Source: a virus (lineage: Duplodnaviria > Heunggongvirae > Uroviricota > Caudoviricetes). From it: DNA of 64,000 nt. The translations under genes were made by a program, and so were the position numbers. Below, piece after piece: positions 5,356 through 25,745 of the stretch. Location of the stretch: the IMG/VR virus record IMGVR_UViG_3300048593_000456, positions 26,514 through 90,513 of that record, one strand, 5' to 3'. The stretch's first letter is position 1. Every line of letters starts with the position of its first letter. Below the pieces are notes generated by a model, which was not told the origin of the DNA, did not search any database, and saw only the letters and a program-made list of their open reading frames with translations.

Positions 5356-5800
5356 GCCAGTATTAATTATTCTTCTATTGCTTTTTTCCGCATTCGGAGA
5401 CAAAATAGACTTGACAAACTTGCAGTTTCTTGCTATAATGCAGAAGGTGGAAGTAGTTAAGCCGTCAGAAGAATTTATTACATTTTCTAATTCTGTTGTT
5501 GGCGATATAAAAGGGCAGGACAGAATAGAATTGGCGTTATATTGTGATTCTTTAAGCGAAAAGCTATTAGAATTAAAAGATAAAAAACCTAAAATGTCTC
5601 AAATTGTAGATATATTTAGCGGGTCTTTTAAAGAATTATACGAAAACAAGTACAACGATAAATACAAAGATTTTTCAGACAGCCTTATTTCCATACTAAA
5701 AATTTACACGGAAGATAAAGACCGTTTTATTTCTTCGGAAGAAATTCAGCAAATGTCTTTATATTATAAGGGTCTAGCATGGAATATTTTAACACAATAA
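5345..5800 (+). CDS. hypothetical protein with N-terminal signal/TM segment
   Basis: ATG at 5345 gives MDYKPVLIILLLLFSAFG. A consensus promoter lies inside its 5' end. Confidence 0.35.
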   Translation: MDYKPVLIILLLLFSAFGDKIDLTNLQFLAIMQKVEVVKPSEEFITFSNSVVGDIKGQDRIELALYCDSLSEKLLELKDKKPKMSQIVDIFSGSFKELYENKYNDKYKDFSDSLISILKIYTEDKDRFISSEEIQQMSLYYKGLAWNILTQ

Positions 5801-9217: not shown

Positions 9218-12202
9218 ATGACATCTGAAAAAAAGAATTTTGGCAAGAAGTTTCTGTCGGACTTGAAACTTTATAGTGACTATTTTAAATGGAATGAAAA
9301 ACTTAACCGCTACGAAAATTGGAACGAAGCTTGTAGCGATATTGTTGATGGACATAAGAAGAAATATGCTAATGTTGACCTTTCTCGGGAGCTAGATTTA
9401 GTTTTAGAGCTAATGAAATCAAAAACTATCCTTGCTTCACAAAGAAATCTACAGTTTAGACATGACCAGATAATGAGACATAATATGCGTATGTACAATT
9501 GTACGACGCTTCATTTTGTTAGTCCTAGAAATTTTGGAGATGTTCTTTATTTAGGTCTGTGTGGCTGCGGTGTTGGCTCATCTCTTTTACTTCCATTTAT
9601 TAATCAGTTACCGGAATTACAAAAGAGAGAAAAAGGTACTAAGACATATATTATACCCGACAGTATTGAGGGCTGGAAAAATGCAATCGATGTCTTGATG
9701 TCTTCTTATTTTACTGAAAGACAGGTTTTCCCCGAATACTCTGGTTATAATATTAGATTTGATTATTCGCAAATACGTGAAGCTGGTTCATTTATTAATG
9801 GCGGGTTTAAGGCTCCCGGCCCCAACGGTCTAAAAAATTCTCTCGAATCAATAGAGAAGTTGTTGGACCACTGGATACTCACACAAGGCCCGAGGCTGCG
9901 TCCTATAGCCGTCTTTGATATATTGTGCCATTCATCCGATGCTGTTCTTAGCGGCGGCGTTAGACGCTCTGCATTGTCTATGATTGTCGATCCAAACGAT
10001 AAAGAAATGATGCTTGCTAAAACAGGCAACTGGAGAACAGAAAATCCCCAGCGAGGTAGATCTAATAATTCTGTATTAATTCACAGACAGTATTGCGATG
10101 AAAATGAAATATCCCAAAGAAAGTTTTTTGACGAAATCGTAGGAATTAACGATGGAGCAAATGATTTAGGATTCGTATTCTGTAATACTTGGTTCGATGT
10201 ATTCAATCCATGTTTTACAATAGATACAAAAGTTTTAACAACTAATGGTTGGATGACTTTTGGCGAAATGATGGAAAAACAAGATACGGAAGATATTTAT
10301 ATAGTTCAAGATAAAAGAGTTAAAGGTAAAGCAGAAGGAATCCATGAATCTTGGGATACAGATCTTTCAAATACTGGTGTTGAATATAATAAAATTGGTA
10401 AAGTTGCAAAAACAGGTGAGAACGTAGATATTTATGAACTTGTTTTATCCTGTGGTAGAAAAGTTAAAGCAACGGGAAATCATAAATTCTCTACTAAACA
10501 AGGCATGAAAGAACTTTTAAGCCTTCAAATTGGCGATGATGTATTAGTTACATGCGATGAAAATATAACAACTAAAAAAGATGAAGATTTTCATGATGGA
10601 TTTTTATCTGGAATGTGTGTAGGAGACGGATACATTACCGAAGATGATGCCGGAATAAGCGTATGGGAAGATCTAGATGATGAAAATGAAGATTTGGAAT
10701 TTACTAAATCTAGCATAGAACAAATATTCAAAGAAAGCATGTCCAGAAGAATAGAATCTAAAGAATTATATTCTGATGGTAAAAAACCAATATCTACAGA
10801 TATTAAATTTAAGTTACAAAGACAAGTTGGAAATTCTGCTAAATATACACTCGCTTCTACAGGATTTAAGAAATACTTAGATATACTCGGAGTAAGAAAA
10901 GATAATTTATCTTGGCTTTATAAGAAAAGTAAAAACTTTAAGGCTGGATTTGTTGCCGGAATGTTTTTTACAGACGGGCATGTAGATTATACAGAATCAT
11001 CCAAGAGCATATCCTTAAGAATAACTCAATCAAATAAGGAGTTTTTAAACGATCTTTCGTTAATATTGCAAGAAATCGGATTTTTGGCATCTGTCTACGA
11101 TCTACTCCCGGAAGAAACAAGAAAGCTTCCTAATTCACAAAGAGTCTTACAGGATTATAATTGCAAGGCATCATATAGATTATGTATAAATGGATATAAG
11201 CAATCTTGTAAATTTATAGAAGATATTGCATTTTTACATAAAGCAAAAATAAATAAAACCAACGACATACTTAACAATCTCAAGGGATATAAAGATATAT
11301 TAAGGCATAAAAAAGTTGTAAGCATTAACTATTTAGGTAAAGAAGATGTTTACTGCTTAGAAGAAAATAACAACAGAACATTGATAGCAAACGGTATCAC
11401 GGCAGCTAGATGTTTTGAAATCGGCTTCACTCCCGTAGACACTCATGATAAACTTCAAGATATATCTTATGAACAAGTAGAAGAATGGGTCAGACAAAAT
11501 ATTCATCTATTCGGAATACAAGGCTGTAATCTAAACGAAATAAATGCCGAAAAATGCGTGCCCGAAAACGGTAAAACACTTGAAGAATCATTTCTTCGTG
11601 CTTGTGAAGGCGCAGCCATACTTGGTACTTTACAGGCTGGATATACTGATTTTCCTTTTCTATCTCCTAGAACCGAAAAATTGGTTAGACGAGAAGCTTT
11701 GCTTGGGGTTAGTATTACTGGCTGGATGAATAATCCCGCACTATTTAACGAAGAGTTGTTACGTAAAGGTGCTGCCGTTGTTGTGGAAACAAATAAAAAG
11801 GTAGCTGCTAAGATAGGTATTAATCAAGCCGCTAGAACTACATGTGTGAAACCGAGCGGAAATGCGTGTACAAAATTCGATACTATTATAAAAACAAACA
11901 TTGGTGACTTAACATTATTAGAAATTTTTAAATACTGCTTAGACGATCCCAATTTTGATACAGAAACCATTAATTTTACAGATACTTCATTTAATTTGAA
12001 AAAACCTTTAAAAGTTTATGATAAAAATAATAATGAGCAAAGTATAGAATTGTTATACATAAACGGTTTATCTGAAACATATGAAGTAGAGTTTGAAGAC
12101 GGTCAAGTTTATTCTTTTACTGAAAATCATAAATTATTAACTGATAAAGGATGGAAACTTGTTAAAGACCTAAAAGAAAATGATGAAATAATAAGCTTTT
12201 AG
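9218..12202 (+). CDS. ribonucleotide reductase large subunit, N-terminal fragment, with one complete LAGLIDADG intein and the N-half of a split intein
   Basis: Extein motifs: FNP-C(F)EIG reconstituting NPCxEI, GCNLNEIN, TTCVKPSGN. Intein 1 is about 10211..11410 and begins CFTIDTKVL. It has block B TGNHKF and two LAGLIDADG motifs, FLSGMCVGDGYI and FVAGMFFTDGHVDY. From about 11867 a second intein N-half begins, CTKFDTII...TENHKLLTDKGWKLV. The ORF then hits a stop. Confidence 0.7.
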   Translation: MTSEKKNFGKKFLSDLKLYSDYFKWNEKLNRYENWNEACSDIVDGHKKKYANVDLSRELDLVLELMKSKTILASQRNLQFRHDQIMRHNMRMYNCTTLHFVSPRNFGDVLYLGLCGCGVGSSLLLPFINQLPELQKREKGTKTYIIPDSIEGWKNAIDVLMSSYFTERQVFPEYSGYNIRFDYSQIREAGSFINGGFKAPGPNGLKNSLESIEKLLDHWILTQGPRLRPIAVFDILCHSSDAVLSGGVRRSALSMIVDPNDKEMMLAKTGNWRTENPQRGRSNNSVLIHRQYCDENEISQRKFFDEIVGINDGANDLGFVFCNTWFDVFNPCFTIDTKVLTTNGWMTFGEMMEKQDTEDIYIVQDKRVKGKAEGIHESWDTDLSNTGVEYNKIGKVAKTGENVDIYELVLSCGRKVKATGNHKFSTKQGMKELLSLQIGDDVLVTCDENITTKKDEDFHDGFLSGMCVGDGYITEDDAGISVWEDLDDENEDLEFTKSSIEQIFKESMSRRIESKELYSDGKKPISTDIKFKLQRQVGNSAKYTLASTGFKKYLDILGVRKDNLSWLYKKSKNFKAGFVAGMFFTDGHVDYTESSKSISLRITQSNKEFLNDLSLILQEIGFLASVYDLLPEETRKLPNSQRVLQDYNCKASYRLCINGYKQSCKFIEDIAFLHKAKINKTNDILNNLKGYKDILRHKKVVSINYLGKEDVYCLEENNNRTLIANGITAARCFEIGFTPVDTHDKLQDISYEQVEEWVRQNIHLFGIQGCNLNEINAEKCVPENGKTLEESFLRACEGAAILGTLQAGYTDFPFLSPRTEKLVRREALLGVSITGWMNNPALFNEELLRKGAAVVVETNKKVAAKIGINQAARTTCVKPSGNACTKFDTIIKTNIGDLTLLEIFKYCLDDPNFDTETINFTDTSFNLKKPLKVYDKNNNEQSIELLYINGLSETYEVEFEDGQVYSFTENHKLLTDKGWKLVKDLKENDEIISF

Positions 12203-17581: not shown

Positions 17582-17972
17582 TGCCGCACAATATATAGCG
17601 GAAATTGTTTGCCTACGTAATTTTAAAAAGAAGCAGATGGGCGATCCATCATTCAAGTTTTGGAATAAAGAAGAAAAAAGTATCTACCAAGGACAAGTTG
17701 TAACAGCAAATAAACTCATTAATGAGTATGGAGTTGAAGCTGTTTTAGATTATATAAATTTTAATAAAGGTATATACTCTCTCGGGCATTTTAATCCCAT
17801 AAAATTTATAAAAGACGGGATATCTAAAACAAAATGGATTCTAGACAAAAAGAGTTCCGTTTCTAAGAAAAATATAGAAGAAGAAAAACAACAGGAAGTT
17901 CCGCAGACAAATTTCGAAATTCCCAAACCTAAACAAAAAACAACATTAATTGATAAACTAAGGAACACATGA
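17520..17972 (+). CDS. hypothetical protein (start uncertain; an alternative in-frame ATG lies near 17637)
   Basis: Overlaps the previous ORF by about 60 nt in another frame. Confidence 0.3.
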   Translation: MDKKRTEKKPYCSPTTGEPCSAAQYIAEIVCLRNFKKKQMGDPSFKFWNKEEKSIYQGQVVTANKLINEYGVEAVLDYINFNKGIYSLGHFNPIKFIKDGISKTKWILDKKSSVSKKNIEEEKQQEVPQTNFEIPKPKQKTTLIDKLRNT

Positions 17973-20002
17973 GCGATAAAAATCTGGATGCCATTTTAAA
18001 GGAAATAAAAAAGAAGCATGGTAATATTATCATTAAGGGTAATGAATTACTTAATCAAAGAAAAGATCATAAAACAATTTCTGTTAGTCCTTCAATAGAT
18101 CTTGCTTTAAAAGGTGGTGTAAGAGAGGGGACTTGGTTAATGTTGTCGGGAGCACCTAAATCGGGCAAGGCACAGCCTATGGATGCTATTATCTACACTC
18201 CTTCTGGACCTACAGTGTTTGAATCTCTTTCAGTTGGGGATGAAATTTGTGGTATTGATGGAAAGCATTGTATAGTCAGAGCTATATACCCCCAAGGAGT
18301 AAGAAAGGTTTATAAGGTTCTTTTTAGTGACGGTACTAACGTAGAGTGTGACGGGCATCATTTGTGGCCGGTATCTGTCAATAGAGTAAATTCGTCTGTT
18401 TTACTTAAGACTACAGAGGAGCTACTATCTAAAGTAAGCTATCCCGACCGCGATAAATGGAAAATAAAATATAGCCACTGTGATTTTAATACTAAGGAAA
18501 CTGTAATAGATCCTTTTGTACTAGGTGTTATATTAGCAGATGGATACGTAGATGCAAATCAGCGTCTTTACATAAAAAATGCAAAACCATACATACTTGA
18601 AGAATTTAATACGAAGATATCTCAATATAATTGCATATTAGATTCTACTGGGGATAGTGGTTATCAAGGCATTATATTAAGCACTGAGAAAAATAATTAC
18701 TTAAACTATTTTATACAAAATTACATGAAATCTTCTCCGGGTCAAAAAGTTATAACACGTAGCTCTTTTAAGGTTCCGGATTTATATAAATACAACTCGT
18801 TTTATAATAGAAACGAACTACTTCGGGGATTTTTAGGATCTAACGGTTATCTTCATCCTTCTGGATACTATGAGGTCGAATCAGCAAACACCCAATTACT
18901 GCGTGACATAGCCGAAGTATCCAGATCATTAGGCTATCCGACTTATATTAACGACAGAAAAGACAGTAGGCAAAGACTAACAATTAATAACTGCGGGGTT
19001 ATGTTACATGCATTAAAAGAAAATAATTCGCCATGCCCGGTAGAAAATTATAAAACCATAAATCTTATTACGGAAGTTGGCGATAAATACTGTCAGTGCA
19101 TAGAAATTGATCAGGACGGTTTATATTTAACTAATGGATTTAATGTTACCCATAATACCACAACTGCTATGCAGCTAGCATTTAATTGTCAGAAAGAAGG
19201 CCGTCCGGTTATCTATATTAATGCCGAGGGTAGATTAAGCGAAATGAATTTTGATGTTCGCGGGCTTGATCCTGAAAAGATGCAGATTATTACGGCAGAA
19301 GATAAACCATTATCCGCAGAAATATTTTTAGATACTGCATTACAACTTATATCAGCAAAAGAAAATGTAGGTGCTTTATGTATTATCGATTCGGTATCTG
19401 CTTTAATACCATCTAGAGAACTAGAAGAAGATGTAACAGGCATGGCTAGACCGGGATTGCCCAAGCTATTATCTAATTTTGTTAAGAAAGCCGGTCAAAT
19501 TGTCCCTAATAACAAGATTACAATGTGCATGATTACGCACCTTATTACTAATACTAGCGGCTATGGACCAAGTAAAATGGCCGACTCTGGTGTAAAGATA
19601 CAGTATCAGGCAGATACTAGAATGGAGGTAAAATCTATTTCACCGTGGGAGCACAAAGAAAAACAGGTCGGGCAAGCCGTAAACTGGAAAATATATTATA
19701 GCTCTAAGGGTGCTACAGGCGTTGAGTGCCAATCATGGATTCGTTACGGCGAAGGTATTGACAGTGCTCAAGAACTGCTTATACTTGGCGAGGAACTGTC
19801 GTTAATCTCCAAGGCCGGTGCGTGGTATACACTAGACTTCCTAAAGTCAAAGCCCGAGGAATTCAAAAAGATTTTGCCCGATGGAGACATTGACAAAGCA
19901 TGTAAATTTCAAGGGCAAGAAAAAGTCTATAACTTTATTAATGATAACCCCGCTGTACTCGAACTTTTACAGAATGATATTTTCGAGATGCTTGCATCAT
20001 GA
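17969..20002 (+). CDS. RecA/UvsX-family recombinase interrupted by a class-3-like LAGLIDADG intein
   Basis: The extein reconstitutes SGAPKSGK|TTTAMQLAFNCQKEGRPVIYINAEG, matching RecA GPESSGKTTLTL...CAFIDAEH. The C-terminal RecA core is present: IIDSVSALIP...MITHLITNTSGYG. The intein is about 18170..19156. It starts with Ala and has block B DGHHLW, LAGLIDADG motifs LGVILADGYV and LRGFLGSNGY, block F KYCQC and block G NGFNVTHN|T. Confidence 0.8.
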   Translation: MSDKNLDAILKEIKKKHGNIIIKGNELLNQRKDHKTISVSPSIDLALKGGVREGTWLMLSGAPKSGKAQPMDAIIYTPSGPTVFESLSVGDEICGIDGKHCIVRAIYPQGVRKVYKVLFSDGTNVECDGHHLWPVSVNRVNSSVLLKTTEELLSKVSYPDRDKWKIKYSHCDFNTKETVIDPFVLGVILADGYVDANQRLYIKNAKPYILEEFNTKISQYNCILDSTGDSGYQGIILSTEKNNYLNYFIQNYMKSSPGQKVITRSSFKVPDLYKYNSFYNRNELLRGFLGSNGYLHPSGYYEVESANTQLLRDIAEVSRSLGYPTYINDRKDSRQRLTINNCGVMLHALKENNSPCPVENYKTINLITEVGDKYCQCIEIDQDGLYLTNGFNVTHNTTTAMQLAFNCQKEGRPVIYINAEGRLSEMNFDVRGLDPEKMQIITAEDKPLSAEIFLDTALQLISAKENVGALCIIDSVSALIPSRELEEDVTGMARPGLPKLLSNFVKKAGQIVPNNKITMCMITHLITNTSGYGPSKMADSGVKIQYQADTRMEVKSISPWEHKEKQVGQAVNWKIYYSSKGATGVECQSWIRYGEGIDSAQELLILGEELSLISKAGAWYTLDFLKSKPEEFKKILPDGDIDKACKFQGQEKVYNFINDNPAVLELLQNDIFEMLAS

Positions 20003-20421
20003 GAATTTTAGGATTAGACGGAAAAGAACATAAGTTATCATTTCACGGAAACACATCTGCTGACAAAAATGATAATAATAGGTCAAAGCTACATTTAAAA
20101 GCAAGAGAAATACTCACAAAGATATTTCCTTTTGATATCATACATGAAGAAGTAACTTTACCCGGAACAAAAGCTAAAAACTCTAAATCTTTACTGTATG
20201 CTGATTTTTTCATTCCATCCCGAAACCTTATTGTGGAGGTTAACGGGGAGCAGCATGATATTTATATAAAATTCTTTCATAAAAATAAGCTAGATTTTTA
20301 TAAAGCTAAGGCCCGAGATAGAAATAAAAAAGAATGGTGTGAATTAAACGGTATAACAATTGTATATTTAAACCATAACGAATCCGAAGAAGAATGGACG
20401 GCCAAGATCAATGAAAGATAA
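19999..20421 (+). CDS. Vsr/DUF559-like PD-(D/E)XK endonuclease
   Basis: DFFIPSRNLIVEVNGEQHD matches the DUF559/Vsr core D-x(n)-EvDG-x-H. It lies immediately downstream of the intein-bearing recombinase gene. Confidence 0.45.
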   Translation: MRILGLDGKEHKLSFHGNTSADKNDNNRSKLHLKAREILTKIFPFDIIHEEVTLPGTKAKNSKSLLYADFFIPSRNLIVEVNGEQHDIYIKFFHKNKLDFYKAKARDRNKKEWCELNGITIVYLNHNESEEEWTAKINER

Positions 20422-22404: not shown

Positions 22405-22432
22405 TTGACACAGGCTTTGCCTGTGTTATAAT
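22405..22432 (+). promoter_or_regulatory. consensus sigma70-type promoter
   Basis: TTGACA-16 nt-TATAAT. The spacer carries the inverted repeat CACAGG-CTTTG-CCTGTG. Confidence 0.55.
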
Positions 22433-22559
22433 GTGATCGGCGGCGTGGCGTTAACTACGACGACAATGGTTCTGTCGCTAACAAATCAAGCAAGAGAATC
22501 GAACTGAATTCTCGTAGCGGTTTTTGTTTAGCAGGTAAACAATCCTGCCCGATCCTCTT

Positions 22560-22648
22560 GCCCCGGAAGTTATTGCGGCGGAACACGCCATTACGCGCTC
22601 TTAGGGGCGAGCGGGTGTCGGGCGAGGGTTCGAATCCCTCTCGGGGCT
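22560..22648 (+). ncRNA. 88-nt tRNA-like RNA (non-canonical; not a standard tRNA)
   Basis: 7-bp acceptor stem GCCCCGG/TCGGGGC. Canonical T-arm GAGGG-TTCGAAT-CCCTC. Internally, AA sits at positions 8-9 and there are two hairpins: GGCG-GAACA-CGCC and CGCTC-TTAGGGGC-GAGCG (an 8-nt loop). It lies about 130 nt downstream of the promoter above. Confidence 0.35.
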
Positions 22649-22674
22649 TTTGGGACGGCGCAATGGAGGTTTAA

Positions 22675-22761
22675 ATGACAGAAACAGGCTTGTTGGTCTA
22701 TGGTTTATTTCTGGTGTTTATTACCATCTGGGTTTGGTTCGAAGGTGATAATCCAAGTTAA
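22675..22761 (+). CDS. small hydrophobic peptide (28 aa)
   Basis: A GGAGG RBS sits 7 nt upstream of the ATG. Sequence MTETGLLVYGLFLVFITIWVWFEGDNPS. Below the track's size cut-off. Confidence 0.3.
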   Translation: MTETGLLVYGLFLVFITIWVWFEGDNPS

Positions 22762-23311: not shown

Positions 23312-23382
23312 GAAGTAGTAGTTCAGGGGTAGAACGTCGCCGGTTCAGGCGAATGACGGTGGTTCGAATCCATCCTGCTTCA
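23312..23382 (+). tRNA. tRNA, anticodon unresolved
   Basis: Acceptor GAAGTAG/CTGCTTC. D-arm GTTC-AGGGGTA-GAAC. T-arm GGTGG-TTCGAAT-CCATC. As read, the anticodon stem TCGCC/GGCGA encloses only 6 nt, GGTTCA. It may be a degenerate tRNA or I may have misread a base. Confidence 0.45.
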
Positions 23383-23396
23383 ATTCACCCATTAAA

Positions 23397-23420
23397 CCGA
23401 TGCCGGAATTCCGGCATCGG
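23397..23420 (+). repeat. perfect 24-nt palindrome between two tRNAs (possible processing or terminator hairpin)
   Basis: CCGATGCCGG-AATT-CCGGCATCGG. Confidence 0.5.
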
Positions 23421-24333: not shown

Positions 24334-24361
24334 TTGACAGCCCGTAAAAGCGTGCTATAAT
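24334..24361 (+). promoter_or_regulatory. consensus sigma70-type promoter upstream of tRNA-Met
   Basis: TTGACA-GCCCGTAAAAGCGTGC (16 nt)-TATAAT. Confidence 0.55.
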
Positions 24362-24391: not shown

Positions 24392-24462
24392 TGCGGGCTA
24401 GAGTAAAGGCAACTCGTCGGTCTCATAAGCCGAAGCTACTGGTTCGATTCCAGTGCCCGCAA
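24392..24462 (+). tRNA. tRNA-Met (CAU); could be initiator, elongator or lysidine-modified Ile2
   Basis: Acceptor TGCGGGC/GCCCGCA. D-arm GAGT-AAAGGCA-ACTC. Anticodon arm TCGGT-CTCATAA-GCCGA. T-arm ACTGG-TTCGATT-CCAGT. Confidence 0.75.
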
Positions 24463-24479
24463 TATTTTTTGAGGTTATT

Positions 24480-25745
24480 ATGAAGCTTGAAGTTCAAAAC
24501 GAAAATTATTGTGCTACAATTGTACGTGTTCATGCATTGGTAGATCTTCCGGGTCTGGATAATCTTAAGGGTGTACAATTCTTTGGATTTTCCTCGCTTG
24601 TTCCTAACGATACAAGCGTGGGTGGTTTAGCGGTTTTGTTCACGGCTGAAACCCAGCTTGCCGACGCTTATTGTAAGCACAACAATTTGTATCGTGATGG
24701 AACTAAGAATTCTGATACAGAAAAGACCGGGTACATCGAAGATAATCGCCGCATTCGTGCTGTCAAGCTTAGGAAGCACGTATCTTCGGCACTACTTATG
24801 CCTCTGGATTCTTTGGCTTGTTTTGATGGCGTGGATACCAATCTACTGAAAGAAGGAGATACTTTTACTCATATTAATGGAGTTGAAGTATGTACTAAGT
24901 ATGTAATCAAAACCTTCCAAAAGAACGGTACCAACCAAAAGAACCCTAAACTTAAGGAAGGCCCGCGAATCGACACTAAGCTTTTGCCGGAACATATTGA
25001 TACTTCACACTACCTGAAAAATGAACATCTTATCGCAGAAGACTGTGATATTGTTGTCACTCAAAAAATTCACGGAACGAGCGGAAGATTTGCACACCAA
25101 GTTTGCCGACGCAAGCTTGGATTTTTTGAGCGAGTTTTGAAGCGTCTTGGTTTTAATATTAACGATAAGACTTATGATTATTTTGCGGCTTCCCGTAGAG
25201 TAATCAAGGACACTAAGGCAAATACTAATTTTCAACATTACTACAATAAGGATATTTGGAATGAAGTTCTTGATGAAATCAAGCATCTAATTCCTAAGAA
25301 CTATGTATTGTATGGTGAAATAGTAGGATATATCGGTGATGCAGAAATTCAAAAGAACTATTCTTACGAATGCGAGCCGGGCCAACATAAGCTCTATATC
25401 TATAGAGTTTCAGTGGTAAATCCTGATGGTGTATCCGTAGACTTGTCTTGGGATGCTGTGAAAGAATTTTGTCAAGTTACCGGACTTTCGTATACTCCCG
25501 AAGTATGGAAAGGAAAAAAGTCTGACTTTGATGTTGACAACTACATGGATGTATGCTATGCTAAAGATCTCGGGCTTTCGCAGTGTGTAAAACTTGCGAA
25601 GAATTCTCCGTGTGATGAAGGCGTAATTGTCCGCACCGAAGGAATGATGCCAAAGTTTTATAAAGCTAAATCTCCTGTATTTTTGGCACATGAAACCAAA
25701 CAACTTGATACGGGCGATGTTGATGTAGAAAGTCAGGAAAGCTAA
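24480..25745 (+). CDS. RNA ligase, Rnl2-like
   Basis: Nucleotidyltransferase motif I VTQKIHGTSGRFAH, matching the Rnl2 signature KIHGTN. Motif IV YVLYGEIVGY. Motif V-like KFYKAKSP. Start placed at the ATG with an RBS GAGG. Confidence 0.65.
   Translation: MKLEVQNENYCATIVRVHALVDLPGLDNLKGVQFFGFSSLVPNDTSVGGLAVLFTAETQLADAYCKHNNLYRDGTKNSDTEKTGYIEDNRRIRAVKLRKHVSSALLMPLDSLACFDGVDTNLLKEGDTFTHINGVEVCTKYVIKTFQKNGTNQKNPKLKEGPRIDTKLLPEHIDTSHYLKNEHLIAEDCDIVVTQKIHGTSGRFAHQVCRRKLGFFERVLKRLGFNINDKTYDYFAASRRVIKDTKANTNFQHYYNKDIWNEVLDEIKHLIPKNYVLYGEIVGYIGDAEIQKNYSYECEPGQHKLYIYRVSVVNPDGVSVDLSWDAVKEFCQVTGLSYTPEVWKGKKSDFDVDNYMDVCYAKDLGLSQCVKLAKNSPCDEGVIVRTEGMMPKFYKAKSPVFLAHETKQLDTGDVDVESQES

What the first reader, a model, noticed from the sequence alone, without database searches (positions are those of the whole stretch)
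22405..22761. Consensus promoter driving a structured RNA whose 3' end is a non-canonical 88-nt tRNA-like element, followed by a 28-aa hydrophobic peptide gene
A TTGACA-N16-TATAAT promoter is followed by about 130 nt of non-coding, hairpin-rich leader (e.g. GAGAAT-CGAACTGA-ATTCTC). Then comes an element with a perfect 7-bp acceptor stem and a textbook T-arm (GGTTCGAATCC). Its interior does not fold as a normal D/anticodon/variable set: AA at positions 8-9, a GGCG-GAACA-CGCC hairpin, and a CGCTC stem closing an 8-nt loop TTAGGGGC. Immediately downstream, a GGAGG RBS precedes a 28-aa membrane peptide. Three readings are possible. It could be a tRNA mimic (RNase P/CCA substrate). It could be a degenerate suppressor-type tRNA with an 8-nt anticodon loop. 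Or it could be a regulatory RNA for the peptide. I cannot reconcile it with tmRNA.
Basis: seen in the sequence. Interest (0 to 1): 0.65.

Follow-up and report, generated by a model that had tools for sequence, protein, structure and literature searches.

The report
Non-decoding tRNA mimic in phage
The 89-base element is a real, conserved phage RNA gene shaped like a transfer RNA, but a variable hairpin replaces its anticodon loop, so it almost certainly cannot read codons; it belongs to an uncatalogued family of such mimics that moves between unrelated phages in small cassettes.

Summary
The 89-nt element (22560-22648) is not a one-off. I found 27 distinct homologues in uncultured phage contigs. 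They share a covarying 7-bp acceptor stem and a covarying T-arm. They also share an almost invariant D-arm (A8 A9 GUU-AUUGCGGNGG-AAC), a 5-bp anticodon stem and a 3-4-nt variable loop. What caps the anticodon stem ranges from a GCGA tetraloop to a 28-nt insert. ARAGORN gives the homologues contradictory anticodons. A model built from the family scores members at 58-95 bits and ordinary tRNAs at 35 bits or less. So this is a tRNA mimic, not a suppressor tRNA or a tmRNA. The "leader" (22435-22556) is a second tRNA-shaped module, X, which sits next to B in most of the other phages examined. The 28-aa ORF is dispensable: a near-identical phage has deleted it. It occupies the slot of a small lipoprotein gene in the ancestral cassette. 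The family matches no non-tRNA Rfam 15 family, and its D-arm was not found in 50,697 cultured phage genomes. Function is inferred: the RNA is probably matured like a tRNA and acts through its tRNA body, as a decoy or ligand. A role as a pure processing signal is the main rival.

The parts
22405..22432 (+). Sigma-70 consensus promoter: TTGACA (22405-10), 16-nt spacer, TG (22424-25), TATAAT (22427-32). The spacer holds the palindrome ACACAGGC-TTT-GCCTGTGT (22408-26).
   Evidence: Scores 12/12 with TG in the scan. Conserved in L001, L002, L051 and L056.
22435..22556 (+). It is a tRNA-shaped RNA. The closing stem GAUCGG (22435-40) pairs with CCGAUC (22549-54). It has D-like and anticodon-like hairpins, a 50-nt extra arm and a T-like hairpin GCAGG-UAAACAAU-CCUGC (22531-48). 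Its 5' end lies about where transcription should start.
   Evidence: Fold. Homologous X modules with the GGAUCGG...CCUGCCCGAUCC frame lie next to B in either order in L006, L008, L012, L014, L017, L018, L019, L023, L029, L036, L059, L075, L110, L149 and others.
22560..22566 (+). B: acceptor stem, 5' strand (positions 1-7).
   Evidence: Pairs with 22641-47. 97.9% paired, and 5 of 7 pairs show compensatory changes across 27 homologues.
22567..22585 (+). B: A8 A9, D-arm GUU-AUUGCGGCGG-AAC (positions 10-25) and A26. In canonical numbering this gives U14, G18 G19 and G22.
   Evidence: Nearly invariant across 27 homologues. Rfam's tRNA model aligns it as the D-arm.
22586..22620 (+). B: 'anticodon arm'. 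The stem is CGCCA/UGUCG (4 of 5 pairs) and encloses a 25-nt irregular insert, UUACGCGCUCUUAGGGGCGAGCGGG. There is no 7-nt anticodon loop. The register of the basal stem is ambiguous.
   Evidence: Per-sequence analysis, registers. A different allele is present in the near-identical phage L056.
22621..22623 (+). B: short variable loop GGC (G45 G46 C48 in canonical numbering).
   Evidence: The loop is (A)GGC or AAGC in nearly all homologues.
22624..22640 (+). B: T-arm GAGGG-UUCGAAU-CCCUC.
   Evidence: 100% paired, and 2 of 5 pairs show compensatory changes.
22641..22648 (+). B: acceptor stem 3' strand (22641-47) and discriminator U (22648). It is followed by UUU, and no CCA is encoded.
   Evidence: The discriminator is U in 26 of 27 members. 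The trailers are UUU, UUG or CUG.
22653..22674 (+). Conserved leader and ribosome-binding module GGGACGGCGCAAUGGAGGUUUAA, with the Shine-Dalgarno GGAGG at 22665-69.
   Evidence: The same motif (GGGGCGGCGUAUGGAGGU) follows the RNA array in L006, L017, L036, L042, L075, L105, L129, L130, L149 and L151.
22675..22761 (+). 28-aa hydrophobic ORF, MTETGLLVYGLFLVFITIWVWFEGDNPS.
   Evidence: Listed as an ORF. Kept in L001 and L051 with conservative replacements; deleted in L056. It sits in the slot of a small lipoprotein gene in related cassettes. No PHROG match.

Best explanation
The element is module B of a two-module array (X, then B) of non-decoding tRNA mimics. The array is transcribed from a consensus sigma-70 promoter, together with a short ORF and the downstream tRNA cluster.

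Shown:
- B has a complete tRNA body: a 7-bp acceptor stem, a D-arm with G18 G19, a 5-bp anticodon stem, a short variable loop, a canonical T-arm and a discriminator U.
- It has no anticodon loop.
- It belongs to a distinct family of at least 27 sequence variants found in unrelated phages.

Inferred:
- RNase P cuts the precursor 5' of G22560.
- The precursor is trimmed after U22648 and receives CCA, giving a stable L-shaped RNA of about 90 nt.
- This RNA cannot decode. It works through its tRNA body as a ligand, decoy or competitor for a protein that reads the elbow, D-arm or acceptor of tRNA. That protein could be a host tRNA-targeting defence or toxin enzyme, or a tRNA-maturation factor.
- The enlarged anticodon arm, which comes in discrete and exchangeable alleles, modulates the activity or adds specificity.
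For: Family and structure:
- Pattern scans found homologues in IMG/VR and in metagenomes.
- In the 27-sequence alignment A6, 98.8% of acceptor, D and T stem cells are paired. Seven of 15 pairs carry compensatory changes. No shuffle out of 500 matches this, and sliding the partner columns drops pairing to 36-62%.
- Model R1 scores members at 58-95 bits and true tRNAs at 35 bits or less.

Non-decoding:
- The segment capping the anticodon stem is GCGA (4 nt), 6, 7, 9, 16-17 or 24-28 nt. Only 1 of 27 members has 7 nt, and that one has U at position 37.
- ARAGORN's identities for homologues are inconsistent.

tRNA body kept:
- A9, U12-A23, G10-C25, G22, G45, G46, G18 G19 and the UUCGAAU T-loop sit at the positions of the canonical core contacts. 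This is read, using established tRNA numbering.

Accessory and mobile character:
- B has 66% G+C in a 36% G+C genome, while most relatives come from phages of about 54% G+C.
- The near-identical phages differ in layout. The window has X-B-ORF, L056 has X-B'(other arm allele) with no ORF, L001 and L051 have A-B-ORF, and L002 has A-ORF66-X with no B.
- L056's arm allele recurs in the recE/recT-type phages L042 and L075.

Other support:
- Arm alleles are conserved where acceptor stems differ, as in L008 versus L011.
- The D-arm is far more conserved than RNase P or RNase Z recognition alone would need.
- The array lies in a tRNA operon next to an RNA ligase and an RlaP RNA-repair nucleotidyltransferase.
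Against: - There is no expression, processing or binding data. Maturation and trans action are inferred only from shape.
- The minimal members have just a tetraloop-capped stem, so the arm cannot be essential.
- No conserved protein partner was found near the arrays.
- For the window sequence, the nearest-neighbour minimum-energy fold is not the cloverleaf. The cloverleaf is 4.6 kcal/mol less stable.
- In the window's own lineage the cassette is in flux, with ORF deletion and B loss in L002. This could mean weak selection.
- The conserved features are also those needed by a pure processing signal.
Confidence: 0.5

Rival explanations
1. B is a cis-acting processing signal, a 't-element' or punctuation mark. 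B and X would exist only to recruit RNase P and a 3' endonuclease, so that the early polycistronic transcript is cut into defined pieces. One of these pieces would be the downstream mRNA, whose conserved leader starts right after B. The released RNA itself would have no function.
For: - The conserved parts (acceptor, T-arm, elbow) are what RNase P and RNase Z read (established knowledge). The anticodon arm is unconstrained in length.
- Modules abut one another with U-rich spacers of 2-4 nt and encode no CCA.
- A conserved leader, beginning UUUUGCCAACCCACUUCGGGG, starts directly after the last module in at least 10 cassettes.
Against: - The D-arm sequence is nearly invariant, which processing does not require.
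- Two or more different modules occur in tandem where one would do.
- B persists in L056 although the downstream ORF is deleted.
- Arm alleles are conserved across phages whose acceptor stems have diverged.
Confidence: 0.2
2. B is a tRNA-scaffolded antisense regulator of the downstream gene, like P1 C4 or P4 CI. The arm (CCAUUACGC) would pair with the leader just 5' of and into the Shine-Dalgarno sequence (GCGCAAUGG) and so control translation of the short ORF.
For: - Complementarity is 9/9 in L006 (duplex z = -2.3) and 8/9 in the window, overlapping the first GG of GGAGG.
- The layout (promoter, structured RNA, ribosome-binding site, small ORF) resembles the P1 c4-icd-ant operon (own knowledge).
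Against: - No comparable pairing exists in L029, where both the arm and the leader changed without compensation.
- None exists in L017, L042, L075 or L036 either.
- Minimal members have only a tetraloop.
- The ORF is absent in L056.
- Duplex z-scores elsewhere lie between about -1.4 and +2.2.
Confidence: 0.1
3. B is an aminoacylatable, non-ribosomal amino-acid carrier. Its acceptor end (G1:C72, C2:G71, U73) resembles the acceptor identity set of bacterial tRNA-Gly. B would be charged and would donate the amino acid to a non-ribosomal reaction while being excluded from decoding.
For: - G1:C72 occurs in 26 of 27 members, C2:G71 in 26 of 27, and U73 in 26 of 27.
- Glycyl-tRNA is used by a phage enzyme, Mom, for DNA hypermodification (PMC13219725).
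Against: - Pair 3:70 is C:G or U:A, not G:C, and the C35 C36 determinants are absent.
- No aminoacyl-tRNA-dependent transferase was found near the arrays.
- The other anticodon-independent synthetases are excluded by their identity rules: there is no G3:U70, no long variable arm, no A73 and no G-1 (own knowledge applied).
Confidence: 0.07
4. B is a bona fide decoding tRNA: a suppressor or frameshift tRNA with an 8-nt anticodon loop, or tRNA-Val as ARAGORN calls it.
For: - ARAGORN calls it tRNA-Val(tac).
- A CGCUC/GAGCG stem with an 8-nt loop can be drawn.
- Some homologues pass Rfam's tRNA threshold.
Against: - The loop is not conserved in length or sequence among clear homologues.
- Called anticodons disagree.
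- The window copy scores 24.2 bits, below the threshold of 29.
- L006 and L029 break the 8-nt-loop stem.
- ARAGORN's 'tac' lies in the arm's 5' flank, not in a 7-nt loop closed by a stem (read).
Confidence: 0.02
5. B is a bacterial Y-RNA-like partner of a Ro60 (TROVE) protein, as with YrlA or Yrn1.
For: [quoted passage not shown]
- Yrn1 is modelled with a 5-bp 'anticodon' stem and a 6-nt loop.
- M. smegmatis YrlA is cut by RNase P and receives CCA (PMC4201824).
Against: - No Rfam family other than tRNA comes near its threshold on the element.
- None of the nine window ORFs of at least 330 aa that were scanned against Pfam carries a TROVE domain; the tenth, the 677-aa ORF at 17969-20002, was not scanned.
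- No Ro-binding helix is present.
- The RNA ends lie at the acceptor stem, with no extended stem.
Confidence: 0.03
6. B is a decaying tRNA pseudogene or a passenger with no function.
For: - The cassette is polymorphic in the window's lineage.
- It looks horizontally acquired: 66% G+C against 36%.
Against: - Compensatory changes in two stems, and a near-invariant D-arm, are seen across 27 variants from unrelated phages.
- The body of B differs at only one position (G7 to A7) among the window, L001, L051 and L056, while the arm differs in L051 and L056 and the flanks rearrange.
Confidence: 0.05

Closest known systems
Canonical tRNA (Rfam RF00005)
   Same: B has a 7-bp acceptor stem, a D-arm with GG, a 5-bp anticodon stem, a short variable loop with G45 G46 C48, a UUCGAAU T-loop and a discriminator. 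It lies in a phage tRNA operon. Some family members exceed the Rfam threshold (33-42 bits).
   Different: B has no 7-nt anticodon loop with U33 and R37, and no conserved anticodon. It has A8/U14 where tRNAs have U8/A14. The window copy scores below the threshold (24.2 bits). A dedicated model separates the family from tRNAs by more than 20 bits.
Phage T4 small stable RNAs, species 1 and 2 (rnaC, rnaD)
   Same: Both are phage-encoded small RNAs inside a tRNA cluster. T4 rnaC ends in a tRNA-type T-arm, CCGGGUUCGAAUCCCGG. That they are co-processed with the tRNAs and that their function is unknown comes from my own knowledge.
   Different: There is no sequence relationship. Model R1 hits only the true T4 tRNAs in that region. 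The T4 RNAs are 119 and 139 nt long and have no complete cloverleaf body.
Bacterial and phage Y RNAs (YrlA, Yrn1)
   Same: Both are non-coding tRNA mimics that keep D- and T-arm contacts. YrlA is a substrate of tRNA enzymes. Yrn1 is modelled with a 6-nt 'anticodon' loop (PMC4201824).
   Different: Y RNAs are defined by Ro60 binding, by a Ro-binding helix and by linkage to rsr. None of these was found here.
mascRNA/MALAT1 and plant mitochondrial t-elements
   Same: These are tRNA-shaped modules without a working anticodon loop that recruit RNase P and RNase Z to define transcript ends (own knowledge). mascRNA was a weak sub-threshold hit, 19.8 bits against a threshold of 42.5.
   Different: They are eukaryotic or organellar, they lack a conserved D-arm, and they are not homologous to B.
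P1/P7 C4 and P4 CI antisense RNAs
   Same: These are phage RNAs cut out of an operon leader by RNase P. They regulate the genes just downstream through loop-target pairing, and the loops set specificity (own knowledge).
   Different: The Rfam scan of the region returned no such family. The target pairing here is not conserved.
Bacillus cereus tRNA-Other (pseudo-tRNA)
   Same: It is a tRNA-like gene that does not work in translation yet has physiological effects (PMC3399842, abstract seen).
   Different: It is chromosomal, single-copy and a different sequence, and it keeps an anticodon-loop-like region.

Membership tests
Decoding tRNA | 7-bp acceptor stem and 5-bp T stem with a T-loop of the UUCRANY type | tested here: met
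   (97.9% and 100% paired, with compensatory changes).
Decoding tRNA | 7-nt anticodon loop with U33 and a purine at position 37 | tested here: not met
   The window has a 25-nt insert. Across the family the segment is 4 to 28 nt. Only L018 has 7 nt, and it has U37.
Decoding tRNA | The same anticodon in orthologues | tested here: not met
   ARAGORN calls Val-tac, Val-cac, Leu-aag, Leu-gag, Asn-gtt, Pro-tgg, undetermined, or makes no call.
Decoding tRNA | Score at or above the Rfam RF00005 gathering threshold (29 bits) | tested here: not met
   The window copy scores 24.2 bits. A few short-armed relatives pass at 33-42 bits.
Decoding tRNA | U8 and A14 (universal tertiary pair) | tested here: not met
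   A8 and U14 are invariant in all 27 members.
Suppressor or frameshift tRNA with an 8-nt loop | An extended anticodon loop kept in homologues | tested here: not met
   L006 and L029 disrupt the stem that closes the 8-nt loop (C40.A51). Other alleles have unrelated arms.
tmRNA | tRNA-like domain with G3:U70 plus a tag reading frame; detected by ARAGORN or Rfam | tested here: not met
   ARAGORN reports no tmRNA. Pair 3:70 is C:G. There is no Rfam tmRNA hit.
Y RNA (YrlA/Yrn) | Adjacent Ro60/TROVE gene and a Ro-binding helix | tested here: not met
   No TROVE domain in the nine window ORFs of at least 330 aa that were scanned. No Rfam hit. Only 64 kb of a genome of about 169 kb was seen.
C4/CI-type antisense RNA | Loop sequences complementary to a target in the downstream leader, conserved or covarying | tested here: inconclusive
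   9/9 in L006 and 8/9 in the window, but absent in L029, L017, L042 and L075.
RNase P / CCA-adding substrate (tRNA mimic) | 12-bp acceptor/T coaxial stack and a D/T elbow | tested here: met
   The nucleotide at -1 is U in 18, A in 8 and G in 1 of the 27 members.
RNase P / CCA-adding substrate (tRNA mimic) | Actual cleavage and CCA addition | not testable with these tools
   Requires RNA-seq, RACE or in-vitro assays.
tRNA-Gly-like acceptor identity | U73, G1:C72, C2:G71, G3:C70 (plus C35 C36) | tested here: not met
   The first three are present. Pair 3:70 is C:G or U:A, and there is no anticodon. The identity rules come from my own knowledge.

The most novel reading that the evidence does not exclude
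B, together with its partner X, defines a new and widespread class of phage-encoded tRNA mimics that do not decode. They are matured by the host tRNA machinery and act in trans on a tRNA-recognising host protein, for example as decoys against tRNA-targeting defence enzymes. The exchangeable anticodon-arm alleles would act as specificity or evasion determinants. The whole unit would spread between unrelated phages as an RNA-only counter-defence cassette.
Probability: 0.3. Interest if true: 0.8.

Novelty: new variant of a known kind. Interest (0 to 1): 0.6.

Why it matters
- Phage tRNA genes are now seen as weapons in the conflict over host tRNA cleavage. A conserved, mobile family of tRNA look-alikes that have given up decoding would point to a second, RNA-only strategy, such as decoys, competitors or processing devices. 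It would give a defined sequence family to test.
- These elements are mis-annotated as tRNAs of arbitrary identity: Val, Leu, Asn and Pro for one family. This corrupts codon-usage and host-prediction analyses of phage genomes.
- The invariant A8/U14 swap in an otherwise canonical tRNA core is a natural experiment in tRNA architecture.

Tried and rejected
- Cultured phages. A 501-nt DNA search found nothing. The 89-nt query gave only generic T-arm matches.
- Rfam. The gathering-threshold scan and the permissive scan gave nothing beyond sub-threshold tRNA and chance hits such as mascRNA, microRNA precursors and a CRISPR repeat.
- tmRNA. ARAGORN is negative.
- False positives from pattern scans. 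Many genome and metagenome hits were IleRS coding sequence (CPHCGG...DVWFDSG), true tRNAs or a planctomycete tRNA(GUU). These were discarded. Most of the 108 hits of the looser scan were chance; the model confirmed only 12.
- Shared neighbouring proteins. Beyond close relatives none is shared with the window. The relatives of about 54% G+C share only recE/recT-type genes and unannotated small proteins.
- Ro60/TROVE. Not found among the window's large ORFs that were scanned.
- Arm-target complementarity. Scanning 800 nt on each side gave no consistent signal ([timed out], 70).
- Supplementary data of the 2023 catalogue of viral structured RNAs are not held, so I could not check whether B is already among its 10,006 candidates.
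RNAalifold favours it within one subfamily only, and it is impossible in the others.
Full report
**Observation**

The window is a low-G+C phage segment (about 33-41% G+C in 2-kb windows) with essentially all genes on the + strand. At 22405-22432 there is a 12/12 sigma-70 consensus promoter: TTGACA, a 16-nt spacer, TG, then TATAAT. The spacer contains the palindrome ACACAGGC-TTT-GCCTGTGT. ARAGORN calls 22560-22648 an 89-nt 'tRNA-Val(tac)'. Rfam's tRNA model reaches only 24.2 bits, below the threshold of 29, and aligns only the acceptor, part of the D region and the T-arm. No other Rfam 15 family comes near its threshold.

**Relatives**

Cultured phages hold nothing similar beyond generic T-arms. 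The flanking protein genes led to two IMG/VR contigs. Sequence-pattern scans led to more loci in IMG/VR, metagenomes and one MAG contig. After discarding false positives and confirming the rest with a covariance model, there are 27 distinct sequence variants of the element, which I call B. Members score 58-95 bits, and ordinary tRNAs in the same loci score 35 bits or less. Most relatives come from phages of about 53-56% G+C. The window's lineage has 36-39% G+C, while B itself has 66%. This suggests horizontal acquisition.

**Anatomy**

In the 27-sequence MAFFT alignment, the acceptor stem is 97.9% paired and 5 of its 7 pairs carry compensatory changes. The T stem is 100% paired, with 2 of 5 pairs compensatory. 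Overall, 0 of 500 shuffles reach the observed values. Sliding the partner columns drops pairing to 36-62%.

The D region is almost invariant: A8 A9, G10-C25, U11-A24, U12-A23, A13.G22, and the loop U14 U15 G16 C17 G18 G19 N20 G21. With N26, a 5-bp stem, a variable loop (A)GGC or AAGC and a UUCGAAU T-loop, canonical tRNA numbering fits. Several residues sit at the positions of the classical core contacts: A9-A23-U12, G45-G10-C25, G46-G22 and G18 G19 with the T-loop. This last point applies established tRNA knowledge to the alignment. One striking departure is A8/U14 in place of the universal U8/A14.

The GGCG-GAACA-CGCC hairpin can form only in one subfamily and cannot form in the others. Thermodynamically, the cloverleaf costs 0-9.5 kcal/mol relative to the minimum-energy fold (4.6 for the window). 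This is usual for models that ignore tertiary contacts.

**No anticodon**

Every member has a stem of 4-5 pairs where the anticodon stem belongs. What caps it varies:
- a GCGA tetraloop in three members;
- 6 nt in five members;
- 7 nt in one member, which has U at position 37;
- 9 nt in two members;
- structured inserts of 16-17 nt or 24-28 nt in the remaining sixteen members.

The window carries a 25-nt insert, and the register of its basal stem is ambiguous. Accordingly, ARAGORN gives clear homologues the identities Val, Leu, Asn, Pro or undetermined, or does not call them at all. The 8-nt loop TTAGGGGC is not an anticodon loop. In L006 and L029 the substitutions U40C and C49U weaken its closing stem and improve an alternative hairpin with a 4-nt loop. 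Suppressor or frameshift tRNA and tmRNA readings are therefore rejected.

**The 'leader' is a second module**

The segment 22435-22556 (X) folds with a closing stem GAUCGG/CCGAUC, D-like and anticodon-like hairpins, a 50-nt extra arm and a T-like hairpin with an 8-nt loop. Modules with the same frame (GGAUCGGCGGCGUGG ... GCAGG-loop-CCUGCCCGAUCC-UUUU) and variable interiors lie next to B, before or after it, in most other loci. Some loci have two copies, and some also have true tRNAs or further tRNA-shaped modules (A, W, a B-like paralogue, Z). Modules are separated by only 2-4 U-rich nucleotides, and none encodes CCA. In one phage, a true tRNA-Phe has X's acceptor stem and a near-identical T-arm.

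**Flux among near-identical phages**

Four contigs share 86-100% identical flanking proteins with the window but differ in this region:
- the window has X-B-ORF28;
- L056 has X-B' with a different arm allele and the ORF deleted;
- L001 and L051 have another tRNA-like module (A), extra sequence, then B-ORF28;
- L002 has A, a 66-aa ORF, and X, with no B.

L056's arm allele is the one found in the unrelated recE/recT-type phages L042 and L075. Arm alleles can be more conserved than acceptor stems, as in L008 versus L011. This is the behaviour of an accessory, exchangeable gene rather than housekeeping translation equipment.

**The peptide**

The 28-aa ORF has a good Shine-Dalgarno sequence and is kept in L001 and L051 with five conservative replacements. 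It is dispensable, since L056 lacks it, and it has no family match. The leader motif GGGRCGGCGYAUGGAGGU recurs after the last RNA module in at least ten cassettes. In those cassettes it precedes a small lipoprotein (..LGCKSQPxxYEIIEV..), with an overlapping hydrophobic ORF of 19-24 aa in another frame in some loci. The window ORF's 3' DNA resembles the 3' end of that lipoprotein gene, but in a different frame. It is probably a re-framed remnant. That is inference.

**Mechanism**

*Shown:* a conserved, structurally constrained, non-decoding tRNA body, sitting in a tRNA operon that also holds an RNA ligase and an RlaP RNA-repair nucleotidyltransferase.

*Inferred:*
- The RNA is matured by RNase P, 3' trimming and CCA addition.
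- It acts in trans through the tRNA body as a decoy or ligand.

I prefer trans action over a pure processing signal for four reasons:
- The D-arm sequence is far more conserved than processing requires.
- Several different modules occur in tandem.
- B survives loss of its downstream ORF.
- Arm alleles are conserved.

The processing-signal model still explains the conserved and variable parts economically, and I give it 0.2. An antisense role on the leader rests on 9/9 complementarity in L006 and 8/9 in the window. Other cassettes do not keep it. A glycine-like acceptor identity (G1:C72, C2:G71, U73) is only partial. No Ro60 gene was seen.

I am about 0.9 confident that this is a non-decoding tRNA mimic. 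I am about 0.4-0.5 confident in trans action through the tRNA body. The overall figure is 0.5.

**Comparison and novelty**

The element works like known tRNA mimics: T4 species 1 RNA, Y RNAs, mascRNA and t-elements, C4/CI, and tRNA-Other. It fails the defining tests of each family and of decoding tRNA (see the membership table). It matches no non-tRNA Rfam 15 family, and its D-arm was not found in INPHARED. It may or may not be among the unnamed candidates of a 2023 IMG/VR structured-RNA catalogue, which I could not check. I rate it a new variant (a new family) of a known kind, with interest 0.6.

Noticed in passing
window 23312-23382 (also L002 5617-5687, L051 3048-3118, L001 6310-6380): This is a second tRNA-shaped gene with a canonical acceptor, D-arm and T-arm (Rfam tRNA 52.8 bits) but a 6-nt 'anticodon' loop, GGUUCA. 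The loop is GGUUGA in L002. The L001 copy has a different arm (CUUCU-GCAA-AGGAG) and a D-loop without GG. It is another non-decoding mimic with a variable arm.
   Followed up: partly
window 24334-24361 and 24392-24462; L001 7349-7421: A second 12/12 consensus promoter with TG lies just upstream of tRNA-Met. The tRNA-Phe that sits between them in L001 is cleanly deleted in the window. Further consensus promoters lie at 5411 and 52689.
   Followed up: partly
window 22408-22426: The perfect palindrome ACACAGGC-TTT-GCCTGTGT overlaps the -35 element and the spacer of the promoter. It is conserved in four relatives with single substitutions, and could be an operator.
   Followed up: no
window 24453-28527: An RNA ligase (PF09414, phrog_968), an RlaP RNA-repair nucleotidyltransferase (PF10127) and an rIIA-like gene lie directly after the tRNA cluster.
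   Followed up: partly
L006 1300-1500, L029 274-460, L075 1-153(-), L017 2560-2824(-): The conserved cassette gene after the RNA array is a small lipoprotein (..(L/V)GCKSQPxxYEII(E/Q)V..). In L006, L029 and L075 the ATG nearest the Shine-Dalgarno sequence opens a different frame, giving a 19-24-aa hydrophobic ORF that overlaps the lipoprotein frame. In L017 the two are in frame. This could be overlapping genes, frameshifting or assembly error.
   Followed up: partly
L001 4702-4780, L002 4702-4776; L042 and L059 (GGACUGYAG...GCAGUCC); L110 4549-4620; L018, L019, L023, L025 and L110 upstream of B: Further uncatalogued tRNA-shaped or structured modules occur in the same arrays. These are A, W (about 130 nt), a B-like paralogue (38 bits) and Z (GAUCCAUGCUCGGCAGUCGG...). 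A recurring CCGG-AGAGA-CGG hairpin also appears.
   Followed up: partly
L031, L047, L049, L055, L057, L062, L072, L076, L085, L091: Loci L072, L076 and L091 from Planctomycetia/Pirellulaceae MAGs, L085 from a Bacteroidales MAG, and six unclassified metagenome contigs (L031, L047, L049, L055, L057, L062) share a tRNA(GUU). It has A8 A9 and an unusually long D stem of 5-6 bp (GCGGUGG-AA-CCCGUGCUGGUACGGGU-A-GGCGGCUGUUAACCGCC...).
   Followed up: no
window 9218-12202: A ribonucleotide-reductase-like ORF carries an intein with a LAGLIDADG domain. An HNH/homing-endonuclease-like ORF lies at 19999-20421.
   Followed up: no
window 23397-23420: The strong palindromic hairpin CCGATGCCGGAA/TTCCGGCATCGG, followed by CTTT, lies after the 6-nt-loop tRNA-like gene. 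It is probably the terminator of the transcription unit that starts at 22405. The terminator scan did not call it, because the T-run is short.
   Followed up: no
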